Source of the DNA: Candidatus Woesearchaeota archaeon
Lineage (GTDB): Archaea; Nanobdellota; Nanobdellia; Woesearchaeales; GW2011-AR4
Reading direction: 5' to 3'
Assembly: GCA_016192955.1 (NCBI GenBank)
Contig: JACPTD010000007.1
Coordinates: forward strand, 1-40,288
DNA length: 40,288 bases
Every line of letters begins with the position of its first letter. The first letter of the stretch is position 1. The notes under the pieces are model-generated. The model searched no databases and had not been told where the DNA came from. It was given only the letters and a program-made list of their open reading frames with translations. A program made the translations under genes and the position numbers. Positions 8,948 through 33,527 of the stretch are shown here, piece after piece.

Positions 8948-8991
8948 TACTTTCATAACCTTTATAAAGCATATTTAAGCGCCTTAAGGCA

Positions 8992-9579: not shown

Positions 9580-9580
9580 A

Positions 9581-10681
9581 ATGATACCCATTGCCAAGCC
9601 GCTTATAGGCTCCGAGGAGATAAACGCAATTGCCGATGTTATAAAATCAGGAATGATTGCCCAGGGCCAAAGAGTTGAGAAATTTGAATCTCTTTTTGCT
9701 GAATTATGCGGCACAGAATTTGCCGTGGCTGTGAATAGCGGAACAGCGGCATTGCACGCAGCTTTAAAGGCTTCAGGAGTGAAGCATGGTGATGAAGTGA
9801 TAACTACACCTTTCACTTTTATTGCAACTGCAAACACAATTCTTATGCAGGGTGCCAAGCCTGTTTTTGCTGATATTGATGAAGCCACTTTTAACATAAG
9901 CCCGGAAAAAATCCAGCAAAAAGTCGGGAAAAAAACAAAAGCCATTGTTACCGTGGACTTGTACGGGCATCTTTGCGATTATGATAAAATAGGGGAAATA
10001 GCCAAGGATAAAAGCCTCATTGTTATTGAGGATGCGTGCCAATCTGTCAATGCTGAATACAACGGCAAAAAATCCGGCAGCTTTGGAGATATTGCTGGAT
10101 TTTCTTTTTATGCAACTAAAAACATCACTTGCGGAGAAGGGGGAGCGATAACAACCAACAACAGGGAATATGCAGAAAATGCCAGGTTATTCAGGCAGCA
10201 TGGCAGAGCCAGCATGCGCCAGTATGAGCACACAGAGCTTGGGTACAATTACAGGATGACTGACATAAGCGCGGCAATGCTTCTTGAGCAGCTTAAAAAA
10301 CTCGAGCTTATAACAAAAAGAAGAATTGAAAATGCTGAATACCTAAGCAAAGGGCTTTCAAAGATTAAGGGCATAAAGGTGCCTGTTGTCAAAAAAGGCT
10401 ATAAGCATGTTTTCCACCAGTATACAATAAAAGTCGAGGACAGCTTTAAATTGAATCGGGACGAGTTGGCTAAGCATTTAAACAAAAAAGGAATTGGCTG
10501 CAGCGTTTATTACCCAAAACCGCTGCATTTATACAATCACTTCAAAAGGCTTGGGTACAAAAGCGGAGATTTTCCGGTTGCTGAAAAATTAAGCAGGCAG
10601 GTCATTTCTTTGCCTGTCTACCCGCAGCTGGAAAAAGAGCAATTGAACCGGATAGTTGACGCTTTTGGGGAGCTTGAATAG
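9581..10681 (+). CDS. DegT/DnrJ/EryC1-family PLP-dependent sugar aminotransferase (WbpE-like).
   Basis: IPIAKPLIGSEE, NSGTAALHAAL, and FSFYATKNITCGEGG (PLP lysine). The ATG lies 1 nt after the preceding stop. Confidence 0.85.
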   Translation: MIPIAKPLIGSEEINAIADVIKSGMIAQGQRVEKFESLFAELCGTEFAVAVNSGTAALHAALKASGVKHGDEVITTPFTFIATANTILMQGAKPVFADIDEATFNISPEKIQQKVGKKTKAIVTVDLYGHLCDYDKIGEIAKDKSLIVIEDACQSVNAEYNGKKSGSFGDIAGFSFYATKNITCGEGGAITTNNREYAENARLFRQHGRASMRQYEHTELGYNYRMTDISAAMLLEQLKKLELITKRRIENAEYLSKGLSKIKGIKVPVVKKGYKHVFHQYTIKVEDSFKLNRDELAKHLNKKGIGCSVYYPKPLHLYNHFKRLGYKSGDFPVAEKLSRQVISLPVYPQLEKEQLNRIVDAFGELE

Positions 10682-10682
10682 A

Positions 10683-11681
10683 ATGGATAAGATTAATGTA
10701 GCTGTTATAGGCACGGGCGCAATGGGCAAAAACCATGCAAGGGTTTATTCAGAGATAGGCAATGCCGAATTGGTTGCGGTATGCGATGCCAATAAAGAGC
10801 GGGCAAAGAGCATTTCTGATTTATATAATGCGAATTGCTACACTGACTACAAAGAAATGCTAAAAAAAGAAAAGATAGAAGCTGCTTCCGTATGCGTGCC
10901 AACAGTGCTTCATAAACAAGTTGCAACTGATGTCATAAAAAAGAAGGTTAATGTCCTTGTGGAAAAGCCCATAGCTGCAGCGATAAATGATGCAAGAGAA
11001 ATCATAAATGAAGCTGAGAAGAACAAGGTGAAGCTTATGGTGGGGCATATAGAAAGATTCAATCCGGTTGTCATTGAACTGAAAAAAAGGATAAGAAAAA
11101 ACCAGCTTGGCAAGATTTATAATGTCCATTGCGCAAGGATGGGGCCGACAGCCCAGAGAATAACGGATGTTGGAGTCATAATAGACCTGGCAATACACGA
11201 GATTGATATACTTAAGCACCTAATCAACTCAAAAATCAAGAGAGTCTATGCCGAAACCGCCCAAAGAATACACTCAACTCATGAAGACATGCTGATAGGC
11301 ACAATAAGGTTCGAAAACGGCGTGCTTGGAGTCATAAACTCGAATTGGCTCACTCCGAAGATAGTGAGGGAAATTTCTGTGGCAGGGGAAAATGGAATGT
11401 TCGTGGCAGATTATTTCAAGCAGGAATTATATTTTTACGAGAATGAATTTGCCAGGAGAAAGCTGATGCATAAATTTTACTCAATGATGGTTCTGGAAGG
11501 CAAAAAAAGAAGGATAAAAATAAAAAACAGTGAGCCTCTCAAAAATGAGCTTGTTGCATTTGTTGGCTGCTGCATGAGCAACGGCAATGTACCTATAACA
11601 GGAAATGATGGTTTGGATGCGCTCTATGTTGCGCAAAAGTTCATTGAATCGTCAAAAAAAAATGAAGTGATGGTGCTATGA
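10683..11681 (+). CDS. Gfo/Idh/MocA-family NAD-dependent sugar oxidoreductase (WbpB-like).
   Basis: INVAVIGTGAMGKNHARVY, VLVEKP and GHIERFNP. The ATG lies 1 nt after the DegT stop. Confidence 0.8.
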   Translation: MDKINVAVIGTGAMGKNHARVYSEIGNAELVAVCDANKERAKSISDLYNANCYTDYKEMLKKEKIEAASVCVPTVLHKQVATDVIKKKVNVLVEKPIAAAINDAREIINEAEKNKVKLMVGHIERFNPVVIELKKRIRKNQLGKIYNVHCARMGPTAQRITDVGVIIDLAIHEIDILKHLINSKIKRVYAETAQRIHSTHEDMLIGTIRFENGVLGVINSNWLTPKIVREISVAGENGMFVADYFKQELYFYENEFARRKLMHKFYSMMVLEGKKRRIKIKNSEPLKNELVAFVGCCMSNGNVPITGNDGLDALYVAQKFIESSKKNEVMVL

Positions 11682-12874
11682 GGATAAGCGTTGTCGGCCT
11701 TGGAAAGGCAGGGCTTCCGCTGGCAGCTGTGATAGCTGACAAAGGATTTGATGTATTGGGTGTGGACTTGGACAAAAATAAAGTTGAAAAGATAAACAAA
11801 GGAATCAATCCGCTGGAAGAGGAGCCCGGATTAAAGAGGCTGATAAGCAGCAATGCAGGCAGCCATTTGAAAGCCACAAGCGATCCAATCAAGGCTGCAA
11901 AGTCCTGCAATGTCCATATTATAGTTGTCCCTCTTTTTATAGGCAAAAACAAAAAGCCGGATTTTTCCATGCTAAAAAATGCTCTTGAGAGCCTGGCAAA
12001 ATGCCTTAAGAGAAATGATATTGTGATTTTGGAAACCACTGTTCCTGTTGGAACAACCGAAAATTTTGTTAAAAAAATACTGGAGAAGGGCTCTGGATTA
12101 AAGGCTGGGCGCGATTTTTATCTTGCTTATAGCCCGGAAAGGATAATGACTGGGTATTCTATAAGCAGGTACGTGGACTTTCCAAAGCTGATTGGCGGAA
12201 TTGATGAAAAAAGCACAGAAAAAGCCTATAAGGTATATAGCTCATTCATAAGCACGCCTGTAAAAGTAAGCAATGCAAGAACAGCAGAGCTTGCAAAAAT
12301 AGCTGAAGGAGTGTACAGGGATGTTAATATTGCCCTGGCAAACGAGCTGTTTATGGCTTCTGAGCACTATAACGTTGATTTTTGGGAGATGAGGGACGCT
12401 GCAAAGCATGAGTTTTGCAATATTCTGGAGCCCGGTAATGTTGGAGGGCATTGTATACCCATTTATCCATGGTTCTTGATTAATGAGCTTGATGCGCCAT
12501 TGGCTAAAGCTGCAAGGGAATTAAATGACGGCATGATTCATTATTACATGAAAAAAATTGAAAGGCTCAATGGAAAAAAAGGAAAAAAAGTCGGCATCAT
12601 TGGATTAAGCTACAGGGAAGGCGTAAAGGAAAAGGCTTACAGCAGGTCTGCAGCTTTAATTGATTTGCTGAAGAAAAAAGGCTATGATGTTTATGGAATA
12701 GACCCTTTGTACTCAAAAGAAGAAATAAAAAAAGAATTTGGAATAAATCATTTAGAGAATTTCAATAAGATGGATGTAATAATTTTGATGAATGAGGAGT
12801 TTGGGTATAAAGATAAATTAAAAAGGATTAAAAATAAAGTTATTGATGTAAAAAACGTTCTAATTAAACAATAA
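11678..12874 (+). CDS. Nucleotide-sugar 6-dehydrogenase (WbpA/WecC-like). Second paralogue in the window.
   Basis: ISVVGLGKAGLPLA, GGHCIPIYPWF and GLSYREGVKE. The start overlaps the upstream stop by 4 nt. Confidence 0.8.
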   Translation: MRISVVGLGKAGLPLAAVIADKGFDVLGVDLDKNKVEKINKGINPLEEEPGLKRLISSNAGSHLKATSDPIKAAKSCNVHIIVVPLFIGKNKKPDFSMLKNALESLAKCLKRNDIVILETTVPVGTTENFVKKILEKGSGLKAGRDFYLAYSPERIMTGYSISRYVDFPKLIGGIDEKSTEKAYKVYSSFISTPVKVSNARTAELAKIAEGVYRDVNIALANELFMASEHYNVDFWEMRDAAKHEFCNILEPGNVGGHCIPIYPWFLINELDAPLAKAARELNDGMIHYYMKKIERLNGKKGKKVGIIGLSYREGVKEKAYSRSAALIDLLKKKGYDVYGIDPLYSKEEIKKEFGINHLENFNKMDVIILMNEEFGYKDKLKRIKNKVIDVKNVLIKQ

Positions 12875-22511: not shown

Positions 22512-22748
22512 ATGAGTAACAAGGAAATTACAACGGTTTCTATACCAACGCAATTGGCTGAGAAGCTGAAGAAGAGGATAGAAGGCACTGGATTTACATC
22601 ACTATCCGGTTATGTGGTGTATATTCTGAGGCAAGTCATCTCCAGCGTTGAGATGGACGAGCGTAAAAAGAATGAGAAAGAGGCTTTTAGCGAGGAAGAC
22701 GAGAAAAGAGTTAAGGAAAGGCTGCGCAGCCTTGGTTATCTGGATTAA
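22512..22748 (+). CDS. Ribbon-helix-helix (CopG/Arc-like) DNA-binding protein.
   Basis: Beta-strand TTVSIP, helix QLAEKLKKRIE and helix SLSGYVVYILRQVI, followed by an acidic tail. It has its own GGTGG ribosome-binding site. Confidence 0.65.
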   Translation: MSNKEITTVSIPTQLAEKLKKRIEGTGFTSLSGYVVYILRQVISSVEMDERKKNEKEAFSEEDEKRVKERLRSLGYLD

Positions 22749-22749
22749 T

Positions 22750-24129
22750 ATGAAAAAGGTTTTTCTTTTTGGCATAGATGGGGCACCGCCTGAGCTGGTT
22801 TTCGGAAAGTGGCTTGAGCACCTCCCAAACATCAGAAAACTTATGGAATCAGGCGCTTATGCCAGGCTTAATAGCACAATACCTCCTTCAACGATAGTTG
22901 CGTGGAATTCAATGATATCGGGCAAAGACACAAGCGAGATAGGTGTTTTCAGCTATACTTATGTTGATGATGAAGGCAGATCTCGGCTTGTCAACTCGCA
23001 CAATATTAAATGCAGGCTAATATGGGATATCCTAAAAGAGCATGGCAAAGAGAGCATTGCGCTTTATGTTCCATTATCTTATCCTGCCAAGCCAATAAAA
23101 GGATTAATGGTTACGGATTTTTTGACTCCAGACGTTGATTCAAACTGCACATACCCTGAGAGTTTAAAAGAGAAAATAAAAACCATGAAAAATACTGATA
23201 TATTTTTTGATGTCGCAGTAGGTTTGGCAGGGCACAAGGGGCTTGAGATTGATGTTCTTATAGAAAAAACATATGAAATGACAGAAATGCAGATTGAGCT
23301 TTTAAAAGACGTTTTAGCCAATGAAAAATGGGACTTCCTCATGGCTGTGATGATAGGCACTGACAGGCTGCAGCACATGCTCTGGAATCATTTTGATGAA
23401 ACCCATAGGAGGTTTGTCAATAATTCTCAACACAAAAACGCACTAAGAGACTACTATGTTTATCTCGACAAAAAACTTGGCGAACTGCTTGAATTGCTTG
23501 ACAAAGACACTACTGTTATAGTTGCTTCTGACCATGGCATGATAAAGCAGGAAGGCAAGATAAACATAAATAATTGGCTTATTAAAGAAGGCTACTTATT
23601 TTTGAAAGAGGGTATTGATTTGTCAGAAAAAAAGCGTTTCAGCAGAGAGCTTATTGACGTGGAAAAGACAGTTGCTTACGGCGGCGGGGCATATAATGCA
23701 CGTGTATACCTAAATAAGAAAAAACTTGGCAAGGATTATAAAAAAATAAGAGAAGAAATGATAAAAAAACTTAGGAATATCCCTGATGACAAAGGCAACA
23801 ATCTTGATACAAGTGTCTACAAGGCAGAAGAAATTTACAAAGACAGTTCAAATCCAGAATGCCCTGACCTAACCGTTTATTTTGATGACTTGAGGTGGGC
23901 ATCAAACCCTGACTTGGGACAGCATGGAATCTATTCATGGTATACTGCGGTCGGCGCTGACAGTGCAGGCCATTCGAGGCAAGGCTGCTTTGTCATAAGC
24001 GGAAAAGGCATCAAAAGCAAAGGCAAAATTGGGGACATTGACATAAGACAGGTTCTGCCAACCATACTAAAATTGCTTGAAGTCAAATGCCCTTCTGACA
24101 TAGATGTAAATCCTGTTGAGGTGTTCTAA
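22750..24129 (+). CDS. Alkaline-phosphatase-superfamily type I phosphodiesterase/nucleotide pyrophosphatase (NPP-like).
   Basis: VFLFGIDGAPPELV, IPPSTIVAWNSMISG (Thr nucleophile position) and VASDHGM. ATG 22750 lies 1 nt after the RHH stop. The ORF-track extension back to 22648 is rejected. Confidence 0.7.
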   Translation: MKKVFLFGIDGAPPELVFGKWLEHLPNIRKLMESGAYARLNSTIPPSTIVAWNSMISGKDTSEIGVFSYTYVDDEGRSRLVNSHNIKCRLIWDILKEHGKESIALYVPLSYPAKPIKGLMVTDFLTPDVDSNCTYPESLKEKIKTMKNTDIFFDVAVGLAGHKGLEIDVLIEKTYEMTEMQIELLKDVLANEKWDFLMAVMIGTDRLQHMLWNHFDETHRRFVNNSQHKNALRDYYVYLDKKLGELLELLDKDTTVIVASDHGMIKQEGKININNWLIKEGYLFLKEGIDLSEKKRFSRELIDVEKTVAYGGGAYNARVYLNKKKLGKDYKKIREEMIKKLRNIPDDKGNNLDTSVYKAEEIYKDSSNPECPDLTVYFDDLRWASNPDLGQHGIYSWYTAVGADSAGHSRQGCFVISGKGIKSKGKIGDIDIRQVLPTILKLLEVKCPSDIDVNPVEVF

Positions 24130-24130
24130 A

Positions 24131-25228
24131 ATGGCGCATTTTTACGAATCAACATTAATTGATACTGTTGACGGTTTTCAATGCAAGTCATATTCAAACG
24201 AGCATCCTGAAGGGCTCATAATCGTCAAGCCAAAATACATCCCAAAAGAATCTATAGAAGGAGAGGGCCTAAAATACAGGTTTTTATTTGAGAAATGCCT
24301 TGTCAGGTTCAACCTTTTTGCAAGAAAAGAGAAGGTTGCAGATTATGTCAAGCAGTTCAGGAAGAGATTTCCCGACTATATTTATGATTGCCCTACAACA
24401 AAAAACTGGTTTTTTGTAGTGCCGCGCAACAGGATAAAGACAGCGCACGATTGCAGGAACGGGCTGAAAGAGCTGATGAAAGTTCCTGAAAGAGACATGG
24501 ACAGTTACCTGAAGCTAGTAAGGGATCTTGTTGATTTTTTAGCCAAAAGCGGAGTCTCTTACAATAATCTTGGAATTACTCACTCCACTTTGCTTGGCAA
24601 CTATACCCCTGGAAAATCAGATATTGACATAGTGATTTACGGAAAAGAAAACGGCTGGAAAATTCTCAACTATCTTAAGGACGCAAAGCATGAAAAGCTC
24701 CATTGGAAAACTGATGAAGAGTGGGCAGAATACTATAAGGAGCATAAGACATCAGAGTCAATGCACTTTACTGAAAAAGAATATATAAGCCATATGGCGC
24801 GTAAAAGGTATGAAGGTATGTTTGACAAAACCGTATTCACTCTGTTTACAGTTGAAGAGCCGCAAGAAACCTGGCTCAAGTGGGGCGATGAAAGCTATGT
24901 GCCAATTGGGCTGGCAACAGTGCAGGGAAGAGTTGTAGACCACTACAACAGCCATGTGCGGCCCGGTTTTTATGGAATTGAAGGTGCAACACTATTGAAT
25001 AGCAGCCATCCAATGCCAAAGATTGACAAAAGCATTGCAATAAAAAAAATTGTGTTTTACTCCATTCCATTCACTCAGCAGGCAATAAGCGGCGAAAAGG
25101 TAAAAGCATGCGGGCTGCTTGAACTTGCAATTCCTAAAAAAGGCGACAAGTATTACCGGCTTGTCATAGGGTACTTTGATGCTTATATAAGCGAGAGAAG
25201 GGAAAAGGAGTTTATCAAGGTTGTTTAA
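24131..25228 (+). CDS. Pol-beta-superfamily nucleotidyltransferase with an uncharacterised N-terminal domain and a beta-rich (OB-like) C-terminal domain. Copy 1.
   Basis: LGITHSTLLGNYTPGKSDIDIVIYG matches the minimal NTase pattern G-S-x(n)-D-x-D (D-I-D codons at 24620-24628). The C-terminus reads VQGRVVDHYNSHVRPGFYGIEG...KIVFYS...ACGLLE. Confidence 0.6.
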   Translation: MAHFYESTLIDTVDGFQCKSYSNEHPEGLIIVKPKYIPKESIEGEGLKYRFLFEKCLVRFNLFARKEKVADYVKQFRKRFPDYIYDCPTTKNWFFVVPRNRIKTAHDCRNGLKELMKVPERDMDSYLKLVRDLVDFLAKSGVSYNNLGITHSTLLGNYTPGKSDIDIVIYGKENGWKILNYLKDAKHEKLHWKTDEEWAEYYKEHKTSESMHFTEKEYISHMARKRYEGMFDKTVFTLFTVEEPQETWLKWGDESYVPIGLATVQGRVVDHYNSHVRPGFYGIEGATLLNSSHPMPKIDKSIAIKKIVFYSIPFTQQAISGEKVKACGLLELAIPKKGDKYYRLVIGYFDAYISERREKEFIKVV

Positions 25229-26308
25229 ATGCACTTCTACGAATCATCCATAATAACAACAGTAGACGGCTTGCATTGCCAGGTCTATGGCAATGAGCAC
25301 CCTATTGACGGCATCCTTGTAAAGCCAAAATACATACCAACGGAAAAGCTGCACAGCGATGCGCTGCCTTACCGCTTTATAGCTGGCAGAAAAATGAACC
25401 GCTTAAATTTATGGGCTGATAAAAAAAAATTAAAAAAGTATATCGAAGAATTTAAAGCCCAATACCCAGAATACACTTATAAGAGCACCATGCATGAAGA
25501 TAATACGCTGTTTTTTTCTGTTCCGATAAACAGGATTGAGAGGATTTACTTCCCTAAAAAGGGCCTATCCGAACTTATGAGCATGCCAGCAAAATCTTTA
25601 GATGAACATCTTAAGGCAGTCTACGAGTTTGTTAATCTTTTATTAGAAAGCGGGATAAAATTAAATGAGCTTGGGGTGACATATTCCACTTTAGTGGGGC
25701 ATTACTTCTTAAATATATCCGACATCAACATAGTAGTCTACGGAAAAGATAATTTCTGGAAACTGATGGATTATCTAAAAAAATTGTCACATCCGTTGCT
25801 GAGGTGGAAGAATGAAGAAGACTGGATGAGATTTTATAAGGGAAGAAACAGGTTTGCTATCTTCACTAAAGAGCAATTTCTCAGGAATATGGACAGAAAG
25901 AAGTCTGAAGGCTATTTTAATAATAGCTTATTCATTATATTTGGAGTAGAAAATGGAAATGAATCGTGGTTTAAATGGAACGAGGAAAAATACAAAAAAC
26001 TTGGCTTGGTCACAGTTCAAGGAAAAGTCGCTGATAATTTTAATTCTGTGGTTAGACCCGGGTTTTATGAGATAAAAGATTCAAAAATCATTAATGGCTA
26101 CGATGAGGTTCCTGTTAAAAAAATTGTTTTTTACTCAAGAGATTATTGCATGCTATCCTATCCCGGAGAGCACATTGAAGCATGCGGATTGCTTGAGTTG
26201 GCAACAACAAAAGAAGGCAAGCAATATCACAGGGTTGTTGTTGGCTATTTTGATGCATATATCGGCGACAGGAGGGAAAAAGAATTTATCAGGGTGCTAA
26301 ATGACTGA
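25229..26308 (+). CDS. Paralogue of the preceding nucleotidyltransferase, with the D-x-D motif changed to D-x-N. Copy 2.
   Basis: Collinear similarity over the full length (MHFYESSIITTVDGLHCQVYGNEHP..., VQGKVADNFNSVVRPGFYEI...). The motif is LGVTYSTLVGHYFLNISDINIVVYG (D-I-N codons at 25721-25729). Confidence 0.6.
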   Translation: MHFYESSIITTVDGLHCQVYGNEHPIDGILVKPKYIPTEKLHSDALPYRFIAGRKMNRLNLWADKKKLKKYIEEFKAQYPEYTYKSTMHEDNTLFFSVPINRIERIYFPKKGLSELMSMPAKSLDEHLKAVYEFVNLLLESGIKLNELGVTYSTLVGHYFLNISDINIVVYGKDNFWKLMDYLKKLSHPLLRWKNEEDWMRFYKGRNRFAIFTKEQFLRNMDRKKSEGYFNNSLFIIFGVENGNESWFKWNEEKYKKLGLVTVQGKVADNFNSVVRPGFYEIKDSKIINGYDEVPVKKIVFYSRDYCMLSYPGEHIEACGLLELATTKEGKQYHRVVVGYFDAYIGDRREKEFIRVLND

Positions 26309-26960
26309 CGAATTTGATAAACTAGTCAATGATGATGCGTCATTGCGCGAAAATTGTGATTTTTGCAAAGAATCCAAGTTAGAGGTAGGCAAAAAAACAA
26401 GATACGGCTCAGTTGTGATATGCAGAATAGGGAAAGCTAAAAACGGATGGTTTGCTACTTTGTCTCCAAAGACAGGCGGCGACCCAAGAAAAGATTTTAC
26501 CGTACAATTGATGCCTTTTGCGCATTTGACTCATTTTTCCCAGATATCGTCTAATAGGGAATTAGCAAAGAATTACGGAACCCTCTTTTCAAAAATATCC
26601 AGATCTATATCGAAAGTCATGCTGGAAGACAAAAATCTTAAGGCGCTAGCTAACTCAAAAGAGCTCGGCATATCAATAGCAACGTATGGAAAATGTACAA
26701 CATGGAAAGAAAAAAAAGAGCATCTTCATGTCAAGATATTTCCATTTAGAGGCAATATAGGCCAACCCTATACACTAGACAGCTCTTTTGAAAGAAAAAA
26801 AATACGAAAAGATCCAAAAACAGGCGAAGAATTCGTAAAAATGATGCCTGTTAGAAAAGTTATGATAGATGATGAAAGATTTGATTTTCTATCGAAGTTA
26901 TTTATATTTTTATTAGATAACTCCTCAACTTTGTCTGATCATTATAACCACATAAAATGA
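26301..26960 (+). CDS. HIT-superfamily-like nucleotide hydrolase/transferase with an atypical H-x-H-x-K motif.
   Basis: N-terminal CDFC, FTVQLMPFAHLTHF, and EHLHVKIFPF where HIT proteins carry HxHxHxx. The gene overlaps both neighbours (by 8 nt and 4 nt). Confidence 0.5.
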   Translation: MTDEFDKLVNDDASLRENCDFCKESKLEVGKKTRYGSVVICRIGKAKNGWFATLSPKTGGDPRKDFTVQLMPFAHLTHFSQISSNRELAKNYGTLFSKISRSISKVMLEDKNLKALANSKELGISIATYGKCTTWKEKKEHLHVKIFPFRGNIGQPYTLDSSFERKKIRKDPKTGEEFVKMMPVRKVMIDDERFDFLSKLFIFLLDNSSTLSDHYNHIK

Positions 26961-27832
26961 GCTACATAGACCTTCAATCCCACACAAACGCTTCAGACGG
27001 CGAATTAAACCCAAAAGAGACAGTCGACCTTGCTATAAAAAGAGGATTAAATGCCCTTGCTATAACTGACCATGATACTGTTGACGCCCTGGGACAAGCC
27101 ATAAGCTATGCAAAAAACAAAAGCATAGAGATAGTTCCTGGAATCGAAATTGAATGCAGCGAGCCAAGGCATGGATTCAAGAAAGTCCATATGCTCGGAC
27201 TTCTTATAGATTACAACAACAGCTCTCTTTTGAATCTAACAAAAAAAAGTAAAGAAGGCAGGATTAGGCAGAAAAGGAAGATAATAAAAAGGCTGAACTC
27301 CCTGGGGTTTGACATAACTTTTAACGAAGTCAGCAGCACGGTAAAGGGCTCTTTCGGAAGGCCCCATGTCGCGAAAATACTGCTGAAGAAATATCCAGGC
27401 GAGTTTGCATCAATAAGGGATGTATTTGACAGGTATATAGGCGAAGGCAGGCCAGCATATGTTCCAAGAAAAAACATGGTTACGCTGAAAGAGGCAATCA
27501 GCATTGTAAAAAATGCCAATGGCATCCCTATTCTCGCACACCCAGGAGTTTTTAAAAAAGAGGGCTCTCTGCAGCTTATAGACATTTTCTGTGACAGCGG
27601 CGGAGAGGGAATAGAAACTTATTACCCATACCACATAGTGTGCCCGGAACTCAAAATAAACAAAGAAGGAAATGATCTCATGATAAAATTTTACCGTGAG
27701 GCTGCAAAATCAAAAAATTTGCTTGAAAGCGGCGGCAATGATTTTCATGGAAGCTACAGGGACACTATGGGAGAGATAAAAATACCCTACAGCGTCCTGG
27801 AAAAGCTAAGGTTAAGAATTCCTGTGCAATAA
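26957..27832 (+). CDS. PHP-domain metal-dependent phosphoesterase (TrpH/YciV-like).
   Basis: IDLQSHTNASDG, ALAITDHDT, ILAHPG and GGNDFHG. Confidence 0.8.
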   Translation: MSYIDLQSHTNASDGELNPKETVDLAIKRGLNALAITDHDTVDALGQAISYAKNKSIEIVPGIEIECSEPRHGFKKVHMLGLLIDYNNSSLLNLTKKSKEGRIRQKRKIIKRLNSLGFDITFNEVSSTVKGSFGRPHVAKILLKKYPGEFASIRDVFDRYIGEGRPAYVPRKNMVTLKEAISIVKNANGIPILAHPGVFKKEGSLQLIDIFCDSGGEGIETYYPYHIVCPELKINKEGNDLMIKFYREAAKSKNLLESGGNDFHGSYRDTMGEIKIPYSVLEKLRLRIPVQ

Positions 27833-27833
27833 C

Positions 27834-29381
27834 TCATATCTTTATCTTTTGAATAACATCCCTTATTGCAGCCTTCTCGTCAAGGGTTACTTTGTCTTCT
27901 TCAGAGTAAAAAATTTCTTTTGAAAAGAGCATTGAATCATCTTTAAATATTTCCTTTAAGACCTTGCCATCCATATCTTTTGGAATTGGTATATCTAGTA
28001 TATGCAATGACGTTGGCACTACATCCATAATTGAAACATTCGAGATAGTGCTTTGTTTTATGCCAGCGCCGGAAGCTGCAAATATTCCAGTTAAATCTGA
28101 AAAATGCTTTCCAGGAAGATAGGTCTCTATTTTATCAAACAGCTTGTCGGAATCGTAGGAAAATATATTTGCATACTTGTTAGTAGGTATGACCACTATA
28201 TCGGGCGCGATATTCAAAGAATTTCCATGATACAATTTTTCCCTTTTTTCAATAACCTGGAAAATCTCATCATTGTTCGAAGGATCGCGGACTTTTTTCA
28301 GTTTTGATATTATTTCATTCCTCAGTTTTTCATATTCATTGCTATTCATATCTCTGCTATTTATGAATACACCGGGGTACCTGTAGAAAACCGATGCGCT
28401 TTTAGCTGATTTCCTGTGAAATGATTCTCTTATCTCCTTGCTTTTTCTAAAAAGGAACATAAGCTTAAGCAGCCCCGTCTTGCTTAACTTTGCATATATT
28501 TTAGGGATGATTTTCTGCATAAAAGTTCTCTTGTCCTTCAGAAAACCTTCTTTGCTCAGCCAAACCCTGAAGTTAAATGATTTTTTCGGAGCCAAGCTAA
28601 ATCCATGATCAGATACTATGAAAATGTAAGGATTCTCATTACGCTCAACGAATGTTTTGATAAGGTGGCCAATGTAAGAGTCAAGTTTTTTTAGGAATTC
28701 ACGAATCACTTCCTTGTTATCAAAGAAAAGGGCTTGCAAAGGGCTTGTTTCGTCGAAAACAAGCATGAAAAAATCCCATTTTTCCTTCATAAGTTCCTTT
28801 AAAGTTAAGAATCTCCTATTATTAATGTAATAAAGTCCATCAAGGTAGTGCTGTCTGTTCTCAATCGAGTGCTTGTTGTCCTGAACTATAGTGAAATCAC
28901 CATACTTTAGACTCGTCTTGTAATCATAGCTCTTCAGCAGCGACATAATATCTGTAGGATATGAATAAACTTTCTCGTCAGGTGGGGTCAAGAAGCACGA
29001 GACCATATAACCGTTCAACTTATCAACGGGATAAGTACCCGGCACGTTTATGATACAGCATCTCTTTCCATAGCGTGACAATACCTGCCATACCTTTTCA
29101 CTTTTAATTGTTCTAGAATTTGCAAGTCTTCCATTATCATTCATGAATTCATATACTCCGTGCTTACCTGGGTTTCTTCCAGTGAAAAGGGATACCCATG
29201 CAGAGATACTTAATGGCGGCACTGTGGTCTTTAAATAAGCCGAGGTGCCTGATTTGACAAGCCTGCTTAAAGCGGGTAGATCACCATTTTTCATCCATGG
29301 CTCTAGCAAATCCCAGCTAGCCCCGTCAATTCCTATTATTAAAACACTATTGCTCATTTTGCCGTATAAGGAATAACTCAT
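27834..29381 (-). CDS. Alkaline-phosphatase-superfamily type I phosphodiesterase/nucleotide pyrophosphatase. Paralogue of 22750-24129.
   Basis: LIIGIDGASWDLL, VPPLSISAWVSLFTGRNPGKHGV and IVSDHGF. The C-terminus DVVPTSLHILDIPIPKD parallels the other copy's VLPTILKLLEVKCPSD. Confidence 0.7.
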   Translation of the reverse strand: MSYSLYGKMSNSVLIIGIDGASWDLLEPWMKNGDLPALSRLVKSGTSAYLKTTVPPLSISAWVSLFTGRNPGKHGVYEFMNDNGRLANSRTIKSEKVWQVLSRYGKRCCIINVPGTYPVDKLNGYMVSCFLTPPDEKVYSYPTDIMSLLKSYDYKTSLKYGDFTIVQDNKHSIENRQHYLDGLYYINNRRFLTLKELMKEKWDFFMLVFDETSPLQALFFDNKEVIREFLKKLDSYIGHLIKTFVERNENPYIFIVSDHGFSLAPKKSFNFRVWLSKEGFLKDKRTFMQKIIPKIYAKLSKTGLLKLMFLFRKSKEIRESFHRKSAKSASVFYRYPGVFINSRDMNSNEYEKLRNEIISKLKKVRDPSNNDEIFQVIEKREKLYHGNSLNIAPDIVVIPTNKYANIFSYDSDKLFDKIETYLPGKHFSDLTGIFAASGAGIKQSTISNVSIMDVVPTSLHILDIPIPKDMDGKVLKEIFKDDSMLFSKEIFYSEEDKVTLDEKAAIRDVIQKIKI

Positions 29382-29564: not shown

Positions 29565-30827
29565 TTATTGCACAAGTTTCAGCTTTATTAATTTTTCGTA
29601 AATCGCATCCGCTGCAATTTTATGCCCAATTTCGTTTGGATGCGGGTCAAATTTGCTGACAATGACATCTTCCTCGTTGCGGGACTGAAAATACGGCAAC
29701 AAATCTAAAACCTCGATACCATATTCAGTTCCTACCTCTTTAATAAAGTTGTTTGCGCCTACAAAAGGATAATTATCTAATTTATAGATAAATGGAAATA
29801 CAACTAAAACTAACGTCGCATTATTCTCGTTTGAGATTTCCTTCAATTCCTTAAAATAAAGTTTGTTAAACTGCCTACTGGTTTCAGAAGAGAATAAACC
29901 CTTAATTGTATTGTAATAGGATTTTTTAATGCCTAGTATTTCCAACGCCCTACTAATTCCTTTATTGCCGAAATAATAAAGGTAGGATGAGCGCTGCATA
30001 TATATATCAAACCAGATTGCATAGGCATTTGTTTTTTCCCTATTACCCGCTTCTCCATCATTAAAATCATTTAGAACGTACCCAATTACAATTATATCCG
30101 GCTTGTAACGCAATGCTTCATTTTTTAGAATTTTAATCTCATATGCTGTATCTATACCGGGCTTTCCAAAGTTTAATACTTCATAAGTCATATTTTTTGA
30201 ATTCTTATTCAGCAATGACTCAAGCTTTTTTAAATATGTGTCATTGGCGTTCTTAACACCCACTCCAAAAGCGAATGAGTCTCCTAAGCCTACTATCCTG
30301 ATTGCACTTTCACCTTTATAATGAGGATATTCTCTGTCCCTATAGCCTTCCCTGTTTAAGGATACATATTTTTTATTAAAATCTTTTTGCCCTGGAATAA
30401 AATTGTATTTTACCTCTTCTGGCAGTACAGCTCTTATAACTAGTTCCAGGAGTACTGTAAAGATGAGCATTGTTAAGATAATTATGGTTAAGTTCTGCAA
30501 AAAAACTCTTTTTTCATTTATAAAGCGCAATATGCTTCTTTTACAATATTTAAAGAAGAAAAATATTGCCAATGCCACAAAACCCATAACTGTAATAAAA
30601 ATTTTAAAATTATTTATTGTATCCAAAGCTGCATCGGTTAATTTATTATTGATAGTATACTTTAGAAAAAAGCTTTCTTTTAGGAAGTAGCCTGTGAGAA
30701 CAAGCAGTATTCCAATCAAAAGCAAGGAATATGTTACAAATTTATAAAAGAATACAGCAAAGTTGGTTATTTTAGTTTTAGTCTTTTGCAATTTTCTCAC
30801 TGTCCCACATGTCTTTTGGGTTGTCAT
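29565..30827 (-). CDS. Membrane-anchored SGNH/GDSL hydrolase-family protein (esterase or O-acyl-handling enzyme).
   Basis: Three N-terminal TM segments, block I IVGLGDSFAFG and block V DPHPNEIGH. The annotated start overlaps the upstream gene by 50 nt, so the true start is uncertain. Confidence 0.7.
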   Translation of the reverse strand: MTTQKTCGTVRKLQKTKTKITNFAVFFYKFVTYSLLLIGILLVLTGYFLKESFFLKYTINNKLTDAALDTINNFKIFITVMGFVALAIFFFFKYCKRSILRFINEKRVFLQNLTIIILTMLIFTVLLELVIRAVLPEEVKYNFIPGQKDFNKKYVSLNREGYRDREYPHYKGESAIRIVGLGDSFAFGVGVKNANDTYLKKLESLLNKNSKNMTYEVLNFGKPGIDTAYEIKILKNEALRYKPDIIVIGYVLNDFNDGEAGNREKTNAYAIWFDIYMQRSSYLYYFGNKGISRALEILGIKKSYYNTIKGLFSSETSRQFNKLYFKELKEISNENNATLVLVVFPFIYKLDNYPFVGANNFIKEVGTEYGIEVLDLLPYFQSRNEEDVIVSKFDPHPNEIGHKIAADAIYEKLIKLKLVQ

Positions 30828-32529
30828 CCCGCTTTATTAAGAAGCTGCCAATCACAAGGTAGTCTATTCCAGTGCCCAACATGCACTTATAGGCGTCTTC
30901 AGGAGCGCAGACAATCGGCTCTCCGCGTATGTTAAATGACGTGTTGATTAAAATCGGTATTCCGCTTAATTTTTCAAATTCCTTTATTACGCCATAGTAA
31001 AGCTCATTTTCCTCTTTTGAGGTTGTCTGAAGCCTTCCTGTGCCGTCAACATGCACAACTCCCGGCACAAGCTTTTTTTTGCTTTCCTTGAAAGGATAAA
31101 CAAAGAGCATAAACGGCTCCTCGTCCTTGTCAATCTCAAAATACTCGTGCACATCCTCTTTGCTGATTACAGGGGCAAAAGGCCTGAAATGCTCTCTGTG
31201 CTTTACTTTCCTGTTCAGAATGTCCTTCATATCAGGATTGGCTGCATTTGACAATATGCTTCTTGCCCCCAATGCCCTTGGACCCCATTCCATCCTGCCC
31301 TGGAACCATCCTACAACATTATTGTTAAATATCAAATTTGCCGTTAACTTAACAAGTGCATCCTTGCTTTTGAATGTCTTATAGACTATATTATTTTTAT
31401 CCAGGAAATTTTTTATATAATCGCCGGAAAAAGAAGGCCCAAGGTAGGCAGATTCCATAACATATTTCCTTTTATTACCGAATATAACATTATATGCGTA
31501 AGCCGCAGCGCCAAGTGAAGCGCCTGCATCGCTTGCAGCAGGCTGCACCCACACGCTCTTGAAAGGAGTATTCTTTGTTATTTTTCCATTGGCAACGCTG
31601 TTCAATGCAACTCCCCCAGCCATGCAGAGGTTTTCCATTTTAGTTTCATTATAAAGGCGGTTAAGCATCTTGAAGATTATCTCTTCGGTTATTTTCTGCA
31701 ATGATGCTGCGATGTCCTTGTGCCTTTGAGCCACTTCCTCGCTTGGTTTTCTTATAGGCCCAAATTCCTCAACAAATTTTTTGCCAGGCATTGTTAACTT
31801 GTGATGGTAATCAAAATAATCCATATCAAACTCTATGCTGCCGTCTTCCTTAACATCAATTATTTTCCTGAAGTTGTCATAATAAGTTGGTTTGCCATAA
31901 GGGGACAATCCCATCACTTTATATTCTGAATTATTTACGCTGAATCCAAGATGCGCTGTCACAGTGCTGTACAGCAAGCCGACAGAGTTTGGAAACCTTA
32001 ATTCCTTCAGCAATGTTATCTCATTTCCTTTGCCATAGCCGTAAGAGGCAGTTGCCCACTCGCCAACGCCGTCAATTGTCAGTATTGCTGCTTCTTCATA
32101 AGGGCTCACTAAAAATGCAGAAGCCGCATGGGCCATGTGGTGCTCTATAAACAGAATATCACCATTATACTTTAGCTTTTTTCTTATTATAGTCGGAACT
32201 CTTAGCTTTTCATTCAGCCATGAGGGCAATGCCTTATAGAAAGGCCAAAATGAAAATGGGAACATTTCAAGATGCTGGCTTAACAGTCTTTCAAATTTCA
32301 GAAGAGGCTTCTCATAAAACGCCATATAATCAATTTGTCCTGCATTTAAGCTTCCTTCCTGCAGGCAATAATTAATCGCGTTTATAGGAAAGCTAATGTC
32401 GTGCTTTTTTCTTGTGAACCTTTCTTCCTCTGCCGCAGCTACAACAATGCCGTCTTTCATCAAGCATGCTGCTGCATCATGATAGAAGCAAGAAATTCCC
32501 AATACAACTTGGTTTTCTTCAGCGCTCAT
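30778..32529 (-). CDS. Carbamoyltransferase (NodU/CmcH/SxtI/TobZ family).
   Basis: VLGISCFYHDAAACLMKDGIVVAAAEEERFTRKKHD, HHMAHAASAF and TSFNIRGEPIV. Confidence 0.9.
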   Translation of the reverse strand: MSAEENQVVLGISCFYHDAAACLMKDGIVVAAAEEERFTRKKHDISFPINAINYCLQEGSLNAGQIDYMAFYEKPLLKFERLLSQHLEMFPFSFWPFYKALPSWLNEKLRVPTIIRKKLKYNGDILFIEHHMAHAASAFLVSPYEEAAILTIDGVGEWATASYGYGKGNEITLLKELRFPNSVGLLYSTVTAHLGFSVNNSEYKVMGLSPYGKPTYYDNFRKIIDVKEDGSIEFDMDYFDYHHKLTMPGKKFVEEFGPIRKPSEEVAQRHKDIAASLQKITEEIIFKMLNRLYNETKMENLCMAGGVALNSVANGKITKNTPFKSVWVQPAASDAGASLGAAAYAYNVIFGNKRKYVMESAYLGPSFSGDYIKNFLDKNNIVYKTFKSKDALVKLTANLIFNNNVVGWFQGRMEWGPRALGARSILSNAANPDMKDILNRKVKHREHFRPFAPVISKEDVHEYFEIDKDEEPFMLFVYPFKESKKKLVPGVVHVDGTGRLQTTSKEENELYYGVIKEFEKLSGIPILINTSFNIRGEPIVCAPEDAYKCMLGTGIDYLVIGSFLIKRDDNPKDMWDSEKIAKD

Positions 32530-32894: not shown

Positions 32895-33070
32895 AGCGGA
32901 TGTGCGTATGCGAAAATATAGCCCAAATATTGATAAAGTCCCTATAGGTTAAAAATTTAATTTGTCAAAAACTGCCCATCAGAGAGGGGTGGCATGTTTT
33001 ATGCACTTGGCATTCAGGTGGTTTTTGATCACACAAAATGCCATGCAATGTCTTGGTACACTTAAACCGC

Positions 33071-33305
33071 GGCTGTCCAAAAAGTTTTAAATTTTCAGAA
33101 TTATTTTTAAAAAATAATGCAATCAGTTCGGCATTTGCATTTTCTGATTAAGAAAAATTTGAATTTTCCCCAGAAAACAGCGTTTTTTGTATTTATAGTC
33201 GAGAAACTAGTATTTATACTTTTCGTTATTGACGAGAAATATTAATTGCAAAATTAACATTTTAGCGAATTTTGAAGAAATTCTCTAATGCCTTTTTGGA
33301 CAGCC
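33071..33305. repeat. 235-bp non-coding unit bounded by perfect 14-bp inverted repeats. Candidate MITE-like element or long-range hairpin.
   Basis: GGCTGTCCAAAAAG (33071-33084) and CTTTTTGGACAGCC (33292-33305). The interior is AT-rich with no ORF. Confidence 0.5.
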
Positions 33306-33323
33306 CCGACTTTTGTTGTTTAA

Positions 33324-33527
33324 ATGGCGGTATCTGATATGAATAAAATTAAATCCAAAATACTATTAACAGGTGCTACTGGATTCATAGGCTCTAATTT
33401 AGTTAAAAAATTGCATAATGGAAATAAAATTGCGATTATTTTGTATATGTTACTAAAGGGATTATATTGGGCTAAAAATCAACAAATTTTAAGTATTTCT
33501 TTTTATGTTAATAATATACTTTCGTAG
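33324..33527 (+). pseudogene. 5' remnant of an NAD-dependent epimerase/dehydratase gene.
   Basis: KILLTGATGFIGSNLVKKL is an SDR Rossmann N-terminus. The similarity is lost after about 40 codons, and the ORF runs into the 3' end of the convergent gene at 33489. Confidence 0.5.

What the first reader, a model, noticed from the sequence alone, without database searches (positions are those of the whole stretch)
24131..26308. Tandem nucleotidyltransferase paralogues, one with a substituted catalytic Asp
The two 360-370-aa proteins are collinear along their whole length, with the same N-terminal FYES..TVDG..C..Y.NEHP..G..VKPKYIP block and the same C-terminal VQG+V.D...S.VRPGFY block. Copy 1 keeps the Pol-beta signature S-D-I-D (24620-24628). 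Copy 2 reads S-D-I-N (AAC codon at 25727-25729). In this superfamily the two carboxylates of the [DE]x[DE] motif bind the catalytic metals. Copy 2 is therefore probably inactive or altered, which suggests an obligate heteromer of a catalytic and a regulatory or substrate-binding subunit.
Basis: partly seen in the sequence, partly recalled or inferred. Interest (0 to 1): 0.6.

Follow-up and report, generated by a model that had tools for sequence, protein, structure and literature searches.

The report
Paired archaeal nucleotidyltransferases, one altered
Two adjacent sister genes for nucleotide-transferring enzymes, one of which has permanently swapped a key catalytic residue, form the core of a gene cluster conserved across tiny DPANN archaea that sits beside the genes for making "active sulfate", so the pair may be an unrecognised way of activating sulfate.

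Summary
NT1 (24131-25228) and NT2 (25229-26308) are full-length paralogues, 45% identical, E 2e-121. NT1 reads S-D-I-D and NT2 reads S-D-I-N. The Asn is neither an error nor a strain variant. It is fixed in 120/120 NT2 orthologues and 53/53 species loci, and four independent metagenome assemblies show no variant there.

NT2 follows NT1 in 54/54 DPANN loci with room. A singleton relative keeps DxD. NT2 is not decaying. It is as conserved as NT1, its remaining pocket residues are invariant, and it is fused to the downstream HIT-fold protein in at least 10 relatives.

Both copies also replace the Gly of the G-S motif, with His in NT1 and Tyr in NT2.

The pair belongs to an uncharacterised Pol-beta-type family with no Pfam, NCBIfam or PDB match.

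It forms a tight operon: (RHH-PDE)-NT1-NT2-HIT-PHP. In about 20 loci an APS kinase is the immediate neighbour, twice fused to PHP. Sulfotransferases and glycan genes lie alongside. No canonical ATP sulfurylase was seen in the loci.

Best reading: a catalytic plus altered NTase pair working in PAPS (sulfonucleotide) metabolism, possibly as a non-canonical sulfate adenylyltransferase. The heteromer itself is untested.

The parts
22512..22748 (+). Small ribbon-helix-helix-like ORF (78 aa), probable operon regulator
   Evidence: tblastn finds it upstream of PDE1 in about 20 DPANN loci. It is 58% identical in L078. No Pfam hit; the RHH assignment is inferred from the N-terminal TTVSIP..LAEKLKK pattern.
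22750..24129 (+). PDE1: alkaline-phosphatase-superfamily phosphodiesterase or nucleotide pyrophosphatase
   Evidence: PF01663, E 1e-41. Its stop lies 1 nt before the NT1 ATG. It is upstream of NT1 in 25/48 loci. It is fused as PDE::HD::NT1 in P0243.
24131..25228 (+). NT1: Pol-beta-type nucleotidyltransferase paralogue with an intact DxD
   Evidence: AF2 model pLDDT 94.4: N-terminal beta domain, then an NTase beta-alpha-beta core, then a C-terminal OB-like barrel.
24578..24586 (+). NT1 T-H-S: the G-S motif with Gly replaced by His
   Evidence: [TS]-H-S in 59/61 loci. The distant family has T-G-S.
24617..24628 (+). NT1 S-D-I-D metal-binding motif
25229..26308 (+). NT2: paralogue with DxN. Its start abuts the NT1 stop (TAA-ATG).
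   Evidence: It follows NT1 in 54/54 loci.
25679..25687 (+). NT2 T-Y-S: the G-S motif with Gly replaced by Tyr
   Evidence: Tyr in 53/53 loci.
25718..25729 (+). NT2 S-D-I-N; Asn codon AAC at 25727-25729
26301..26960 (+). HIT-fold protein (219 aa). It overlaps the NT2 stop by 8 nt.
   Evidence: Invariant residues are C19-x-x-C22 (26355-26366), H75 and E-H-L-H-V-K (26718-26735). AF2 pLDDT 79.8. All top Foldseek hits are HIT superfamily, prob 0.9-1.0 and E about 1e-2. It is fused to NT2 in at least 10 relatives and follows NT2 in 47/50 loci.
26957..27832 (+). PHP-domain phosphoesterase, closest to 3',5'-nucleoside bisphosphate (pAp) phosphatase and RNase RNM. It overlaps HIT by 4 nt.
   Evidence: PF02811, E 4.5e-13. 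NF041577 scores 155.7 bits, below the cutoff of 400. It lies within 3.5 kb in 35/47 loci. It is fused to APS kinase in L007/L076 and L026.
27834..29381 (-). PDE2: second AP-superfamily phosphodiesterase, convergent with the operon
   Evidence: PF01663, E 6e-39. It recurs downstream on the minus strand in about 12 loci.

Best explanation
NT1 and NT2 come from a DPANN-specific tandem duplication within an uncharacterised archaeal family of Pol-beta-type nucleotidyltransferases. The family architecture is an N-terminal beta domain, an NTase core and an OB-like barrel.

NT1 keeps the two-carboxylate metal site and is the catalytic copy. NT2 has a fixed, selected DxN site and a relaxed triphosphate loop. 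It most likely no longer does two-metal nucleotidyl transfer but still binds a nucleotide ligand. It acts with NT1, probably as a hetero-oligomer, and hands substrate or product to the HIT-fold enzyme to which it is sometimes fused.

The whole unit (PDE/HD)-NT1-NT2-HIT-PHP belongs to sulfonucleotide (APS/PAPS) metabolism that feeds sulfation of surface glycans. APS kinase makes PAPS, sulfotransferases use it, and PHP removes the pAp by-product.

The most likely specific role for NT1/NT2 (with HIT) is the otherwise missing first step, transfer of AMP from ATP onto sulfate. The fused or adjacent pyrophosphatase-type PDE/HD would pull that reaction forward.

Shown: paralogy, the fixed DxN, obligatory adjacency, the fusions and the gene neighbourhood. 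Inferred: the heteromer, NT2 as a binding subunit, and the sulfate-activating chemistry.
For: Paralogy and motifs.

Selection on NT2: it is as conserved as NT1 and the Asn is invariant in 173 sequences.

Loss of NTP-loop constraint in NT2: T159 and G161 are conserved only in NT1, and the fixed differences H151/Y, N157/H and D166/N cluster around the active site.

Pairing: NT2 follows NT1 in 54/54 loci with a median gap of about 14 nt. In the window the genes are joined TAA-ATG.

Singleton P0244 keeps DxD and has no NT2, HIT or PHP beside it.

The duplication is DPANN-specific (NJ tree). Distant relatives also occur as clustered paralogues, all with GS and DxD.

Fusions: NT2::HIT, HD::NT1 and PDE::HD::NT1, and PHP::APS kinase.

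HIT fold. HIT proteins are known to use APS as a substrate (PMC4613722).

PAPS link: APS kinase lies within 7 kb in 25/66 species loci. It is directly downstream of PHP in 12 and directly upstream and divergent in about 8. Sulfotransferase-family ORFs are in the flanks. PHP is closest to pAp phosphatase. No canonical ATP-sulfurylase motifs were found in 862 kb of these loci. The flanks are dominated by glycan genes.
Against: No physical evidence exists for an NT1-NT2 complex. No NT1::NT2 fusion was seen among the 150 best representatives. NT1 and NT2 distances correlate weakly (r = 0.37).

The window itself has no APS kinase or sulfotransferase hit in its 40 kb. About 60% of loci lack an adjacent APS kinase.

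Genome-wide absence of sat or cysDN was not tested.

The distant relatives sit with tetrahydromethanopterin and pterin genes, not sulfur genes, so the chemistry is not conserved family-wide.

No Pol-beta-fold enzyme is known to activate sulfate (own knowledge).

The third catalytic carboxylate could not be located. NT1 also lacks the canonical Gly of the G-S motif, so even NT1 is atypical.

The HIT fold match is only moderate (E about 1e-2, pLDDT 80).
Confidence: 0.4

Rival explanations
1. NT1 and NT2 are both active enzymes that catalyse two different consecutive steps. NT2 would use a one-metal or Asn-assisted mechanism. They are not a catalytic plus non-catalytic heteromer. The pathway could still be sulfonucleotide or another activated-donor pathway in glycan synthesis.
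For: The Asn and the rest of the NT2 pocket are invariant, and NT2 is as conserved as NT1. Distant relatives occur as two to four clustered paralogues that all keep GS and DxD, which suggests multi-step or multi-substrate use rather than regulation. NT1 evolves semi-independently of NT2 (r = 0.37, with two or three NT1 subtypes).
Against: D-to-N at the second carboxylate normally cripples two-metal NTases (established knowledge of the superfamily). The NT2 triphosphate loop is unconstrained. DxN never occurs without a DxD partner.
Confidence: 0.25
2. The operon is an RNA or oligonucleotide end-processing or nucleotide-salvage module. NT1/NT2 would be template-independent RNA or tRNA 3'-end nucleotidyltransferases using the OB-like domain to bind nucleic acid. 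PDE, HD, PHP (RNase RNM-like) and HIT (aprataxin, DcpS or FHIT-like) would trim or de-adenylylate ends.
For: The OB-like C-terminal domain matches SSB, RPA and the aaRS anticodon-binding domains. PHP scores almost as well for RNase RNM as for pAp phosphatase. HIT relatives include aprataxin and DcpS. Bacterial CCA enzymes carry HD domains (own knowledge). DPANN depend on salvaged nucleotides (own knowledge).
Against: The Foldseek OB hits are weak (E > 0.03). The direct adjacency and fusion with APS kinase and the sulfotransferase neighbours are not explained. The loci are glycan islands, not RNA-processing neighbourhoods. Distant relatives sit in cofactor operons.
Confidence: 0.12
3. It is a nucleotide second-messenger or anti-virus defence module. 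It would consist of a CD-NTase or OAS-like synthase with an inactive sensor paralogue, plus degrading phosphodiesterases.
For: The tandem active/inactive NTase arrangement recalls OAS2 and OAS3. Several phosphodiesterase families are present in one operon.
Against: No PADLOC hit for any component except a negligible one for PHP. The unit is found in 66 species-level DPANN loci with fixed synteny rather than patchily, as defence islands are. No effector gene is present. The APS kinase linkage is unexplained.
Confidence: 0.04
4. NT2 is a decaying duplicate, or the Asn is a sequencing or strain artefact.
For: None beyond the substitution itself.
Against: Four independent assemblies agree. DxN is fixed in 173 orthologues. 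NT2 is the most conserved protein of the operon. The reading frame is intact everywhere.
Confidence: 0.01

Closest known systems
Minimal Pol-beta-type nucleotidyltransferases (Pfam NTP_transf_2 PF01909 / Polbeta PF18765; MNT-like)
   Same: The core has a beta-alpha-beta arrangement with a G-S helix cap and a DxD strand. Of the distant family, 74/100 members hit PF01909 and 23/100 hit PF18765.
   Different: The proteins are three times larger, with a unique N-terminal beta domain and a C-terminal OB-like barrel. No Pfam, NCBIfam or PDB entry covers the whole protein. NT1 and NT2 replace the motif Gly with His and Tyr, and NT2 has DxN.
OAS2/OAS3 and NF45-NF90 (DZF) pseudo-NTase partners (own knowledge)
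   Same: A duplicated NTase-fold unit has lost catalytic carboxylates but is retained as a binding or partner module next to, or dimerised with, a related unit.
   Different: Those are eukaryotic, and fused (OAS) or fully non-catalytic on both sides (DZF). Here there are two separate genes, only one residue of the dyad is changed, and that residue is strictly conserved. No sequence relationship was detected.
ATP sulfurylase systems: Sat, heterodimeric CysD-CysN, and Sat-APS kinase(-pyrophosphatase) fusions (own knowledge)
   Same: The genomic position is the same, beside APS kinase, a pAp phosphatase and sulfotransferases. There is a two-subunit logic of catalytic plus auxiliary, as in CysDN. 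A pyrophosphatase-type domain is fused to the putative catalytic subunit.
   Different: There is no homology. The Sat motifs RNPxHxxH and GRDHAG are absent from the loci. The fold is Pol-beta NTase, not the HxxH nucleotidylyltransferase or PP-loop fold. Activity is untested.
HIT superfamily enzymes acting on APS (Fhit, Hint4, DcpS; GalT and Ap4A-phosphorylase branch)
   Same: The downstream 219-aa protein has a HIT fold by Foldseek. It has an H-x-H nucleophile motif plus a GalT-like CxxC...H pattern. HIT enzymes hydrolyse, phosphorolyse or ammonolyse APS through an adenylyl-His intermediate (PMC4613722).
   Different: The motif is H-x-H-x-K, not H-x-H-x-H or H-x-H-x-Q. No Pfam HIT or GalT model matches. 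It is fused to an NTase paralogue in some genomes, an architecture not known to me.
Distant archaeal relatives in tetrahydromethanopterin/pterin gene clusters (Bathy-, Kor-, Nezha-, Baldr-archaeia)
   Same: They share the three-domain architecture, at E about 1e-40 to the DPANN profile. They also occur as adjacent paralogues.
   Different: All copies keep T-G-S and DxD. Their neighbours are MptA-type GTP cyclohydrolase, DHPS-like, flavoprotein and RFAP-synthase-like genes, with an HPPK fusion. There is no HIT, PHP or APS kinase.

Membership tests
Pol-beta-like nucleotidyltransferase superfamily (PF01909-type) | Profile match at or above the Pfam gathering score | tested here: inconclusive
   NT1 scores 20.6 bits against a GA of 21, E 6e-4. 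NT2 has no hit. Of the distant relatives, 74/100 hit at E <= 0.01, best 9e-10. They link to NT1/NT2 at E about 1e-40.
Pol-beta-like nucleotidyltransferase superfamily (PF01909-type) | hG[GS] motif at the helix N-cap | tested here: not met
   The Ser is kept, but the Gly is His in NT1 (59/61 loci) and Tyr in NT2 (53/53). The distant family has T-G-S.
Pol-beta-like nucleotidyltransferase superfamily (PF01909-type) | [DE]h[DE]h metal-binding dyad | tested here: inconclusive
   The result differs between the two copies. NT1 meets it: DxD in 61/61 loci and 106/106 orthologues. NT2 does not: DxN in 53/53 and 120/120.
Pol-beta-like nucleotidyltransferase superfamily (PF01909-type) | Third catalytic carboxylate on a neighbouring strand | tested here: inconclusive
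   E242 is invariant in NT1 and NT2 but is not conserved in the distant family, where only DxD and one Glu in the OB-like domain are. No model coordinates were available to check the geometry.
Pol-beta-like nucleotidyltransferase superfamily (PF01909-type) | NTase alpha/beta fold | tested here: inconclusive
   The secondary structure of the AF2 model (beta 147-150, helix 151-155, beta 165-170, helix 172-182) fits the fold. Foldseek found no match at E < 0.001; the best NTase hit was Pla1, prob 0.6.
HIT superfamily (downstream 219-aa protein) | HIT fold | tested here: met
   The top 20 Foldseek PDB hits are all HIT proteins (1y23, FHIT, GalT-like 6k5z, HINT, aprataxin, DcpS), prob 0.9-1.0 and E 0.01-0.1. 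The model has pLDDT 79.8. Support is moderate.
HIT superfamily (downstream 219-aa protein) | H-phi-H-phi-H-phi-phi (or H-x-H-x-Q) nucleophile motif | tested here: inconclusive
   E-H-L/I-H-V/I-K is invariant, with Lys at the third position. No Pfam HIT or GalT match.
Canonical ATP sulfurylase (Sat; CysD/CysN) | Sequence signatures RNPxHxxH and GRDHAG, or homology to Sat or CysD | tested here: not met
   Neither NT1 nor NT2 has any NCBIfam or Pfam hit to these families. The motifs are absent from 862 kb of loci. The pair is therefore not a member; only 'may work like one' is proposed.
Canonical ATP sulfurylase (Sat; CysD/CysN) | Catalyses ATP + sulfate -> APS + PPi | not testable with these tools
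   This needs an enzyme assay or complementation.
PHP-family 3',5'-nucleoside bisphosphate phosphatase (26957-27832) | NCBIfam equivalog score at or above the cutoff | tested here: not met
   NF041577 scores 155.7 bits against a cutoff of 400. RNase RNM scores 145 against 375. The PHP domain itself is met (PF02811, 50 bits against 26). It is a family relative, not an equivalog.
CD-NTase, CBASS or other catalogued defence systems | Match to PADLOC models | tested here: not met
   No hit for NT1, NT2, HIT, PDE1, PDE2, RHH or the HD::NT1 fusion.
Catalytic plus pseudo-enzyme hetero-oligomer | Physical NT1-NT2 interaction | not testable with these tools
   No multimer prediction was available. The indirect evidence is 54/54 adjacency and the TAA-ATG junction. 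There is no NT1::NT2 fusion and r = 0.37.

The most novel reading that the evidence does not exclude
NT1-NT2, together with the HIT-fold protein, is a third, non-homologous kind of sulfate-activating enzyme: an ATP (or ADP/Ap4A):sulfate adenylyltransferase built on a Pol-beta nucleotidyltransferase heteromer. The DxN subunit would be a metal-poor APS-binding or hand-off site. The enzyme would supply PAPS for glycan sulfation across DPANN archaea. More broadly, the whole family, including the methanopterin-cluster relatives, would be 'oxyanion or hydroxyl adenylyltransferases' that fill missing steps in archaeal cofactor and sulfur metabolism.
Probability: 0.27. Interest if true: 0.85.

Novelty: new variant of a known kind. 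Interest (0 to 1): 0.62.

Why it matters
If the pair is a catalytic plus altered heteromer, it is a clean prokaryotic example of a selected pseudo-enzyme partner in the Pol-beta NTase superfamily, in a family with no characterised member and no solved structure.

The conserved operon gives a concrete, testable function for a block of 'hypothetical' genes found in most Woese-, Nano-, Iain- and Aenigmat-archaeota. The proposed function is supply and recycling of active sulfate for cell-surface glycans. This bears on how these host-dependent archaea build their surfaces.

If the sulfate-activation idea holds, metabolic reconstructions that score sulfate activation by sat or cysDN alone would miss it in DPANN.

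The distant relatives point to missing steps of methanopterin biosynthesis in Bathyarchaeia and Asgard archaea.

Tried and rejected
Searches that found nothing:
- Sequence searches of PDB with NT1, with the DPANN profile A1, the distant-family profile A2 and the HIT profile A3 gave no meaningful hit.
- NCBIfam gave nothing for NT1, NT2, HIT or the distant relatives.
- Foldseek of the NT1 model against PDB gave no hit below E 0.03, only OB-fold fragments and a weak poly(A) polymerase match.
- PADLOC gave nothing.
- A literature search for COG1665 gave 0 papers. Searches on methanopterin plus nucleotidyltransferase, and on DPANN plus PAPS, found nothing describing this family.
- No RNA-seq run holds the region, so co-transcription could not be checked.

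Analyses that did not help:
- The mirror-tree test for NT1-NT2 co-evolution was weak (r = 0.37) because NT1 has divergent subtypes.
- My first motif regular expressions failed or mis-numbered NT2.

Ideas considered and dropped:
- TiaS-like or CCA-adding enzyme: no fold or sequence match.
- RelA/SpoT-like pyrophosphokinase: suggested by the HD and HPPK fusions, but the motif is classical GS...DxD.
- Sugar-1-phosphate nucleotidylyltransferase: only the glycan context supports it.

Caveat on one line of evidence: Pfam 'Sulfatase' hits in the flanks, including window 33489-35243, may be LtaS- or EptA-like transferases, so they were not used as evidence for sulfur metabolism.
Full report
OBSERVATION. 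The two ORFs are real. NT1 is 24131-25228 (365 aa) and NT2 is 25229-26308 (359 aa). They align end to end with 45% identity and 68% positives, E 2e-121. Codons 24617-24628 read S-D-I-D and 25718-25729 read S-D-I-N. The NT1 stop TAA (25226-25228) is followed directly by the NT2 ATG. The same sequence appears in assemblies of four groundwater metagenome runs, with no variant at the Asn codon.

IS THE ASN A QUIRK? No. Searches of 5.8 billion proteins returned two orthologue sets from DPANN archaea (Woese-, Nano-, Aenigmat- and Iain/Diapherotrites). All 120 NT2 orthologues read SD[IMLV]N. All 106 scorable NT1 orthologues read SD[IMV]D. A scan of one genome per GTDB species gave 66 loci. In these, NT2 follows NT1 in 54 of 54 loci with enough downstream sequence. 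DxN is present in 53/53 and DxD in 61/61. A singleton relative, P0244, is 44-45% identical to both copies. It keeps DxD and has no NT2 beside it.

IS NT2 DEAD? It is not decaying. Over 32 complete loci the mean pairwise identity is 0.62 for NT2, 0.60 for NT1, 0.56 for HIT and 0.51 for PHP. Mean column conservation is 0.73 for NT2 against 0.75 for NT1. The Asn, the preceding S-D and the Ser of the G-S motif are invariant. The residues fixed differently in the two clades cluster at the active site: H151/Y, N157/H and D166/N. The loop residues T159 and G161 are conserved only in NT1. I read this as loss of canonical NTP and metal handling while a selected ligand pocket is kept. That reading is an inference. 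Both copies also replace the Gly of the superfamily's G-S motif: T-H-S in NT1 and T-Y-S in NT2, against T-G-S in all distant relatives. NT1 is therefore atypical as well.

WHAT FAMILY? NT1 just misses the Pfam NTP_transf_2 threshold (20.6 bits against 21) and NT2 has no hit. NCBIfam and PDB sequence searches are empty. A profile search of 1.84 billion representatives found 978 relatives. These include a family of about 340 aa in Bathy-, Kor-, Nezha- and Baldr-archaeia at E about 1e-40. Of that family, 74/100 hit PF01909 and 23/100 hit Polbeta. AlphaFold2 gives a confident NT1 model (pLDDT 94.4, pTM 0.91). It has an N-terminal beta domain, a beta-alpha-beta NTase core and a C-terminal barrel. 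Foldseek finds no PDB neighbour for the whole protein, only weak OB-fold matches. This is an uncharacterised branch of the Pol-beta NTase superfamily. An NJ tree puts NT1 and NT2 together against the distant family, so the duplication is DPANN-specific. The distant family also occurs as two to four clustered paralogues, all with GS and DxD.

THE OPERON. In the window the genes are packed with junctions ranging from 1 nt apart to 8 nt of overlap. The order is an RHH-like ORF (22512-22748), PDE1 (22750-24129, PF01663), NT1, NT2, a 219-aa protein (26301-26960) and PHP (26957-27832). A second PF01663 gene is convergent (27834-29381). Across species loci the 219-aa gene follows NT2 in 47/50. PHP lies within 3.5 kb in 35/47, and PDE1 precedes NT1 in 25/48.

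The 219-aa protein has invariant C-x-x-C, His75 and E-H-x-H-x-K. It folds with pLDDT 80. Its best structural matches are all HIT-superfamily enzymes: a Bacillus HIT protein, FHIT, a GalT-type uridylyltransferase, HINT, aprataxin and DcpS, with prob 0.9-1.0 and E about 0.01.

Natural fusions tie the parts together. NT2::HIT occurs in at least 10 relatives. HD::NT1 and PDE::HD::NT1 also occur. PHP::APS kinase occurs in two species.

WHAT PATHWAY? The nearest flanking ORFs of the operon are mostly glycan-synthesis genes: GT1/GT4, epimerases and flippases. Strikingly, APS kinase accounts for 9 of 148 sampled ORFs. By tblastn, an APS kinase lies within 7 kb in 25 of 66 species loci. It is the very next gene after PHP on the same strand in 12, with a gap of 8-128 nt. 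It is the divergent upstream neighbour of NT1 in about 8. Sulfotransferase-family ORFs (PF00685, PF03567) occur in the flanks of 8 species loci and in L077, which reads Sulfotransfer_1, APS kinase, NT1, NT2, HIT, PHP. PHP is closest to the PHP-type 3',5'-bisphosphate (pAp) phosphatase, although below the equivalog cutoff. HIT enzymes are documented to use APS as a substrate through an adenylyl-enzyme intermediate (PMC4613722).

The neighbourhood therefore contains every step of a PAPS cycle except the first, sulfate adenylylation. No canonical ATP-sulfurylase motif occurs in 862 kb of these loci. The simplest hypothesis is that NT1/NT2 with HIT provides or handles APS. The PDE/HD pyrophosphatase-type partners, APS kinase and PHP would then pull an unfavourable reaction forward. 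This step is inferred from gene association only.

There are caveats. The window itself holds no APS kinase. Genome-wide absence of sat or cysDN was not checked. The distant relatives sit in tetrahydromethanopterin and pterin clusters instead: an MptA-type cyclohydrolase, a DHPS-like gene, a flavoprotein, an RFAP-synthase-like kinase and an HPPK fusion.

HETEROMER? The evidence is indirect: universal adjacency, a translationally coupled junction, non-redundant motifs and DxD in singletons. Against it, or missing: no multimer model could be run and no NT1::NT2 fusion was found. NT1 and NT2 distances correlate poorly (r = 0.37), whereas NT2 tracks HIT and PHP (r = 0.69 and 0.76). NT2 may be more intimately tied to HIT than to NT1.

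VERDICT. The pair is a new variant of the catalytic plus pseudo-enzyme theme, in an uncharacterised NTase family. Its operon context makes a specific and novel biochemical hypothesis directly testable.

Noticed in passing
L006:4965-7035; L004:4962-7053; L073:5626-7143; L074:2852-7047; L075:4936-7077: Distant relatives of NT1/NT2 in Baldrarchaeia, Bathyarchaeia and others sit as clustered paralogues inside tetrahydromethanopterin/pterin gene clusters. The neighbours are GCHY-1/MptA, a Pterin_bind DHPS-like gene, Flavoprotein/Fer4, a GHMP kinase, FTR and Mpt_N. One relative is fused to HPPK (folK). They may fill a missing methanopterin biosynthesis step.
   Followed up: partly
L076:12796-14205 (= L007) and L026:9839-11221: The PHP phosphoesterase and APS kinase are fused into one ORF (469 aa in L076). 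This would couple PAPS synthesis with removal of pAp.
   Followed up: partly
P0241 (614 aa), P0243 (1087 aa); loci L047, L048, L049, L064: Some Woesearchaeota carry a RelA/SpoT-type HD domain (weak PF13328 hit) fused in front of NT1. In one case PDE1 is fused in front of that.
   Followed up: partly
loci L046-L064 against L007-L033: NT1 falls into subtypes. One is about 70% identical to the window NT1 and reads T-H-S. Another is about 47% identical and reads S-H-S. An intermediate group is about 52% identical. NT2 stays 54-72% identical throughout. NT1 seems to have been exchanged or to have evolved faster in some lineages.
   Followed up: partly
window 6632-12874: This is a complete-looking WbpA/B/E/D/I-type set: UDP-GlcNAc 2-epimerase, GT1, hexapeptide acetyltransferase, DegT aminotransferase, GFO/IDH/MocA oxidoreductase and UDP-sugar dehydrogenase. 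It would make a 2,3-diacetamido uronic acid sugar.
   Followed up: no
window 3080-6626: A small acyl-carrier-type cluster lies inside the glycan locus. It holds an FkbH-like protein (604 aa), a 4'-phosphopantetheinyl transferase, a MaoC dehydratase and an aminoglycoside-3-N-acetyltransferase-like ORF.
   Followed up: no
window 33001-37000: G+C drops to 0.28-0.30, against about 0.40 elsewhere. The stretch holds a membrane-anchored 'Sulfatase'-family protein (33489-35243, possibly an LtaS/EptA-like transferase) and ORFs with no or only faint Pfam hits. It may be a recently acquired or variable part of the glycan island.
   Followed up: no
window 30778-32529 and 29565-30827: A NodU/CmcH-type carbamoyltransferase and a GDSL-family acylhydrolase lie just downstream of PDE2. 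This suggests carbamoyl and O-acyl decoration of the glycan.
   Followed up: no
L011, L013, L016, L026 etc.; L066; L071: Several GTDB records that carry this DPANN operon are titled 'uncultured Methanosarcinales', 'Patescibacteria group bacterium' or 'Bacteroides sp.'. These are probably mislabelled or mis-binned contigs.
   Followed up: no
L078:7001-8089 and L079:128-1198: Singleton DxD relatives (P0244, P0248) are each followed by a prolyl-tRNA synthetase gene. In L078 an RHH-PDE pair lies nearby on the other strand. This may reflect the pre-duplication arrangement.
   Followed up: partly
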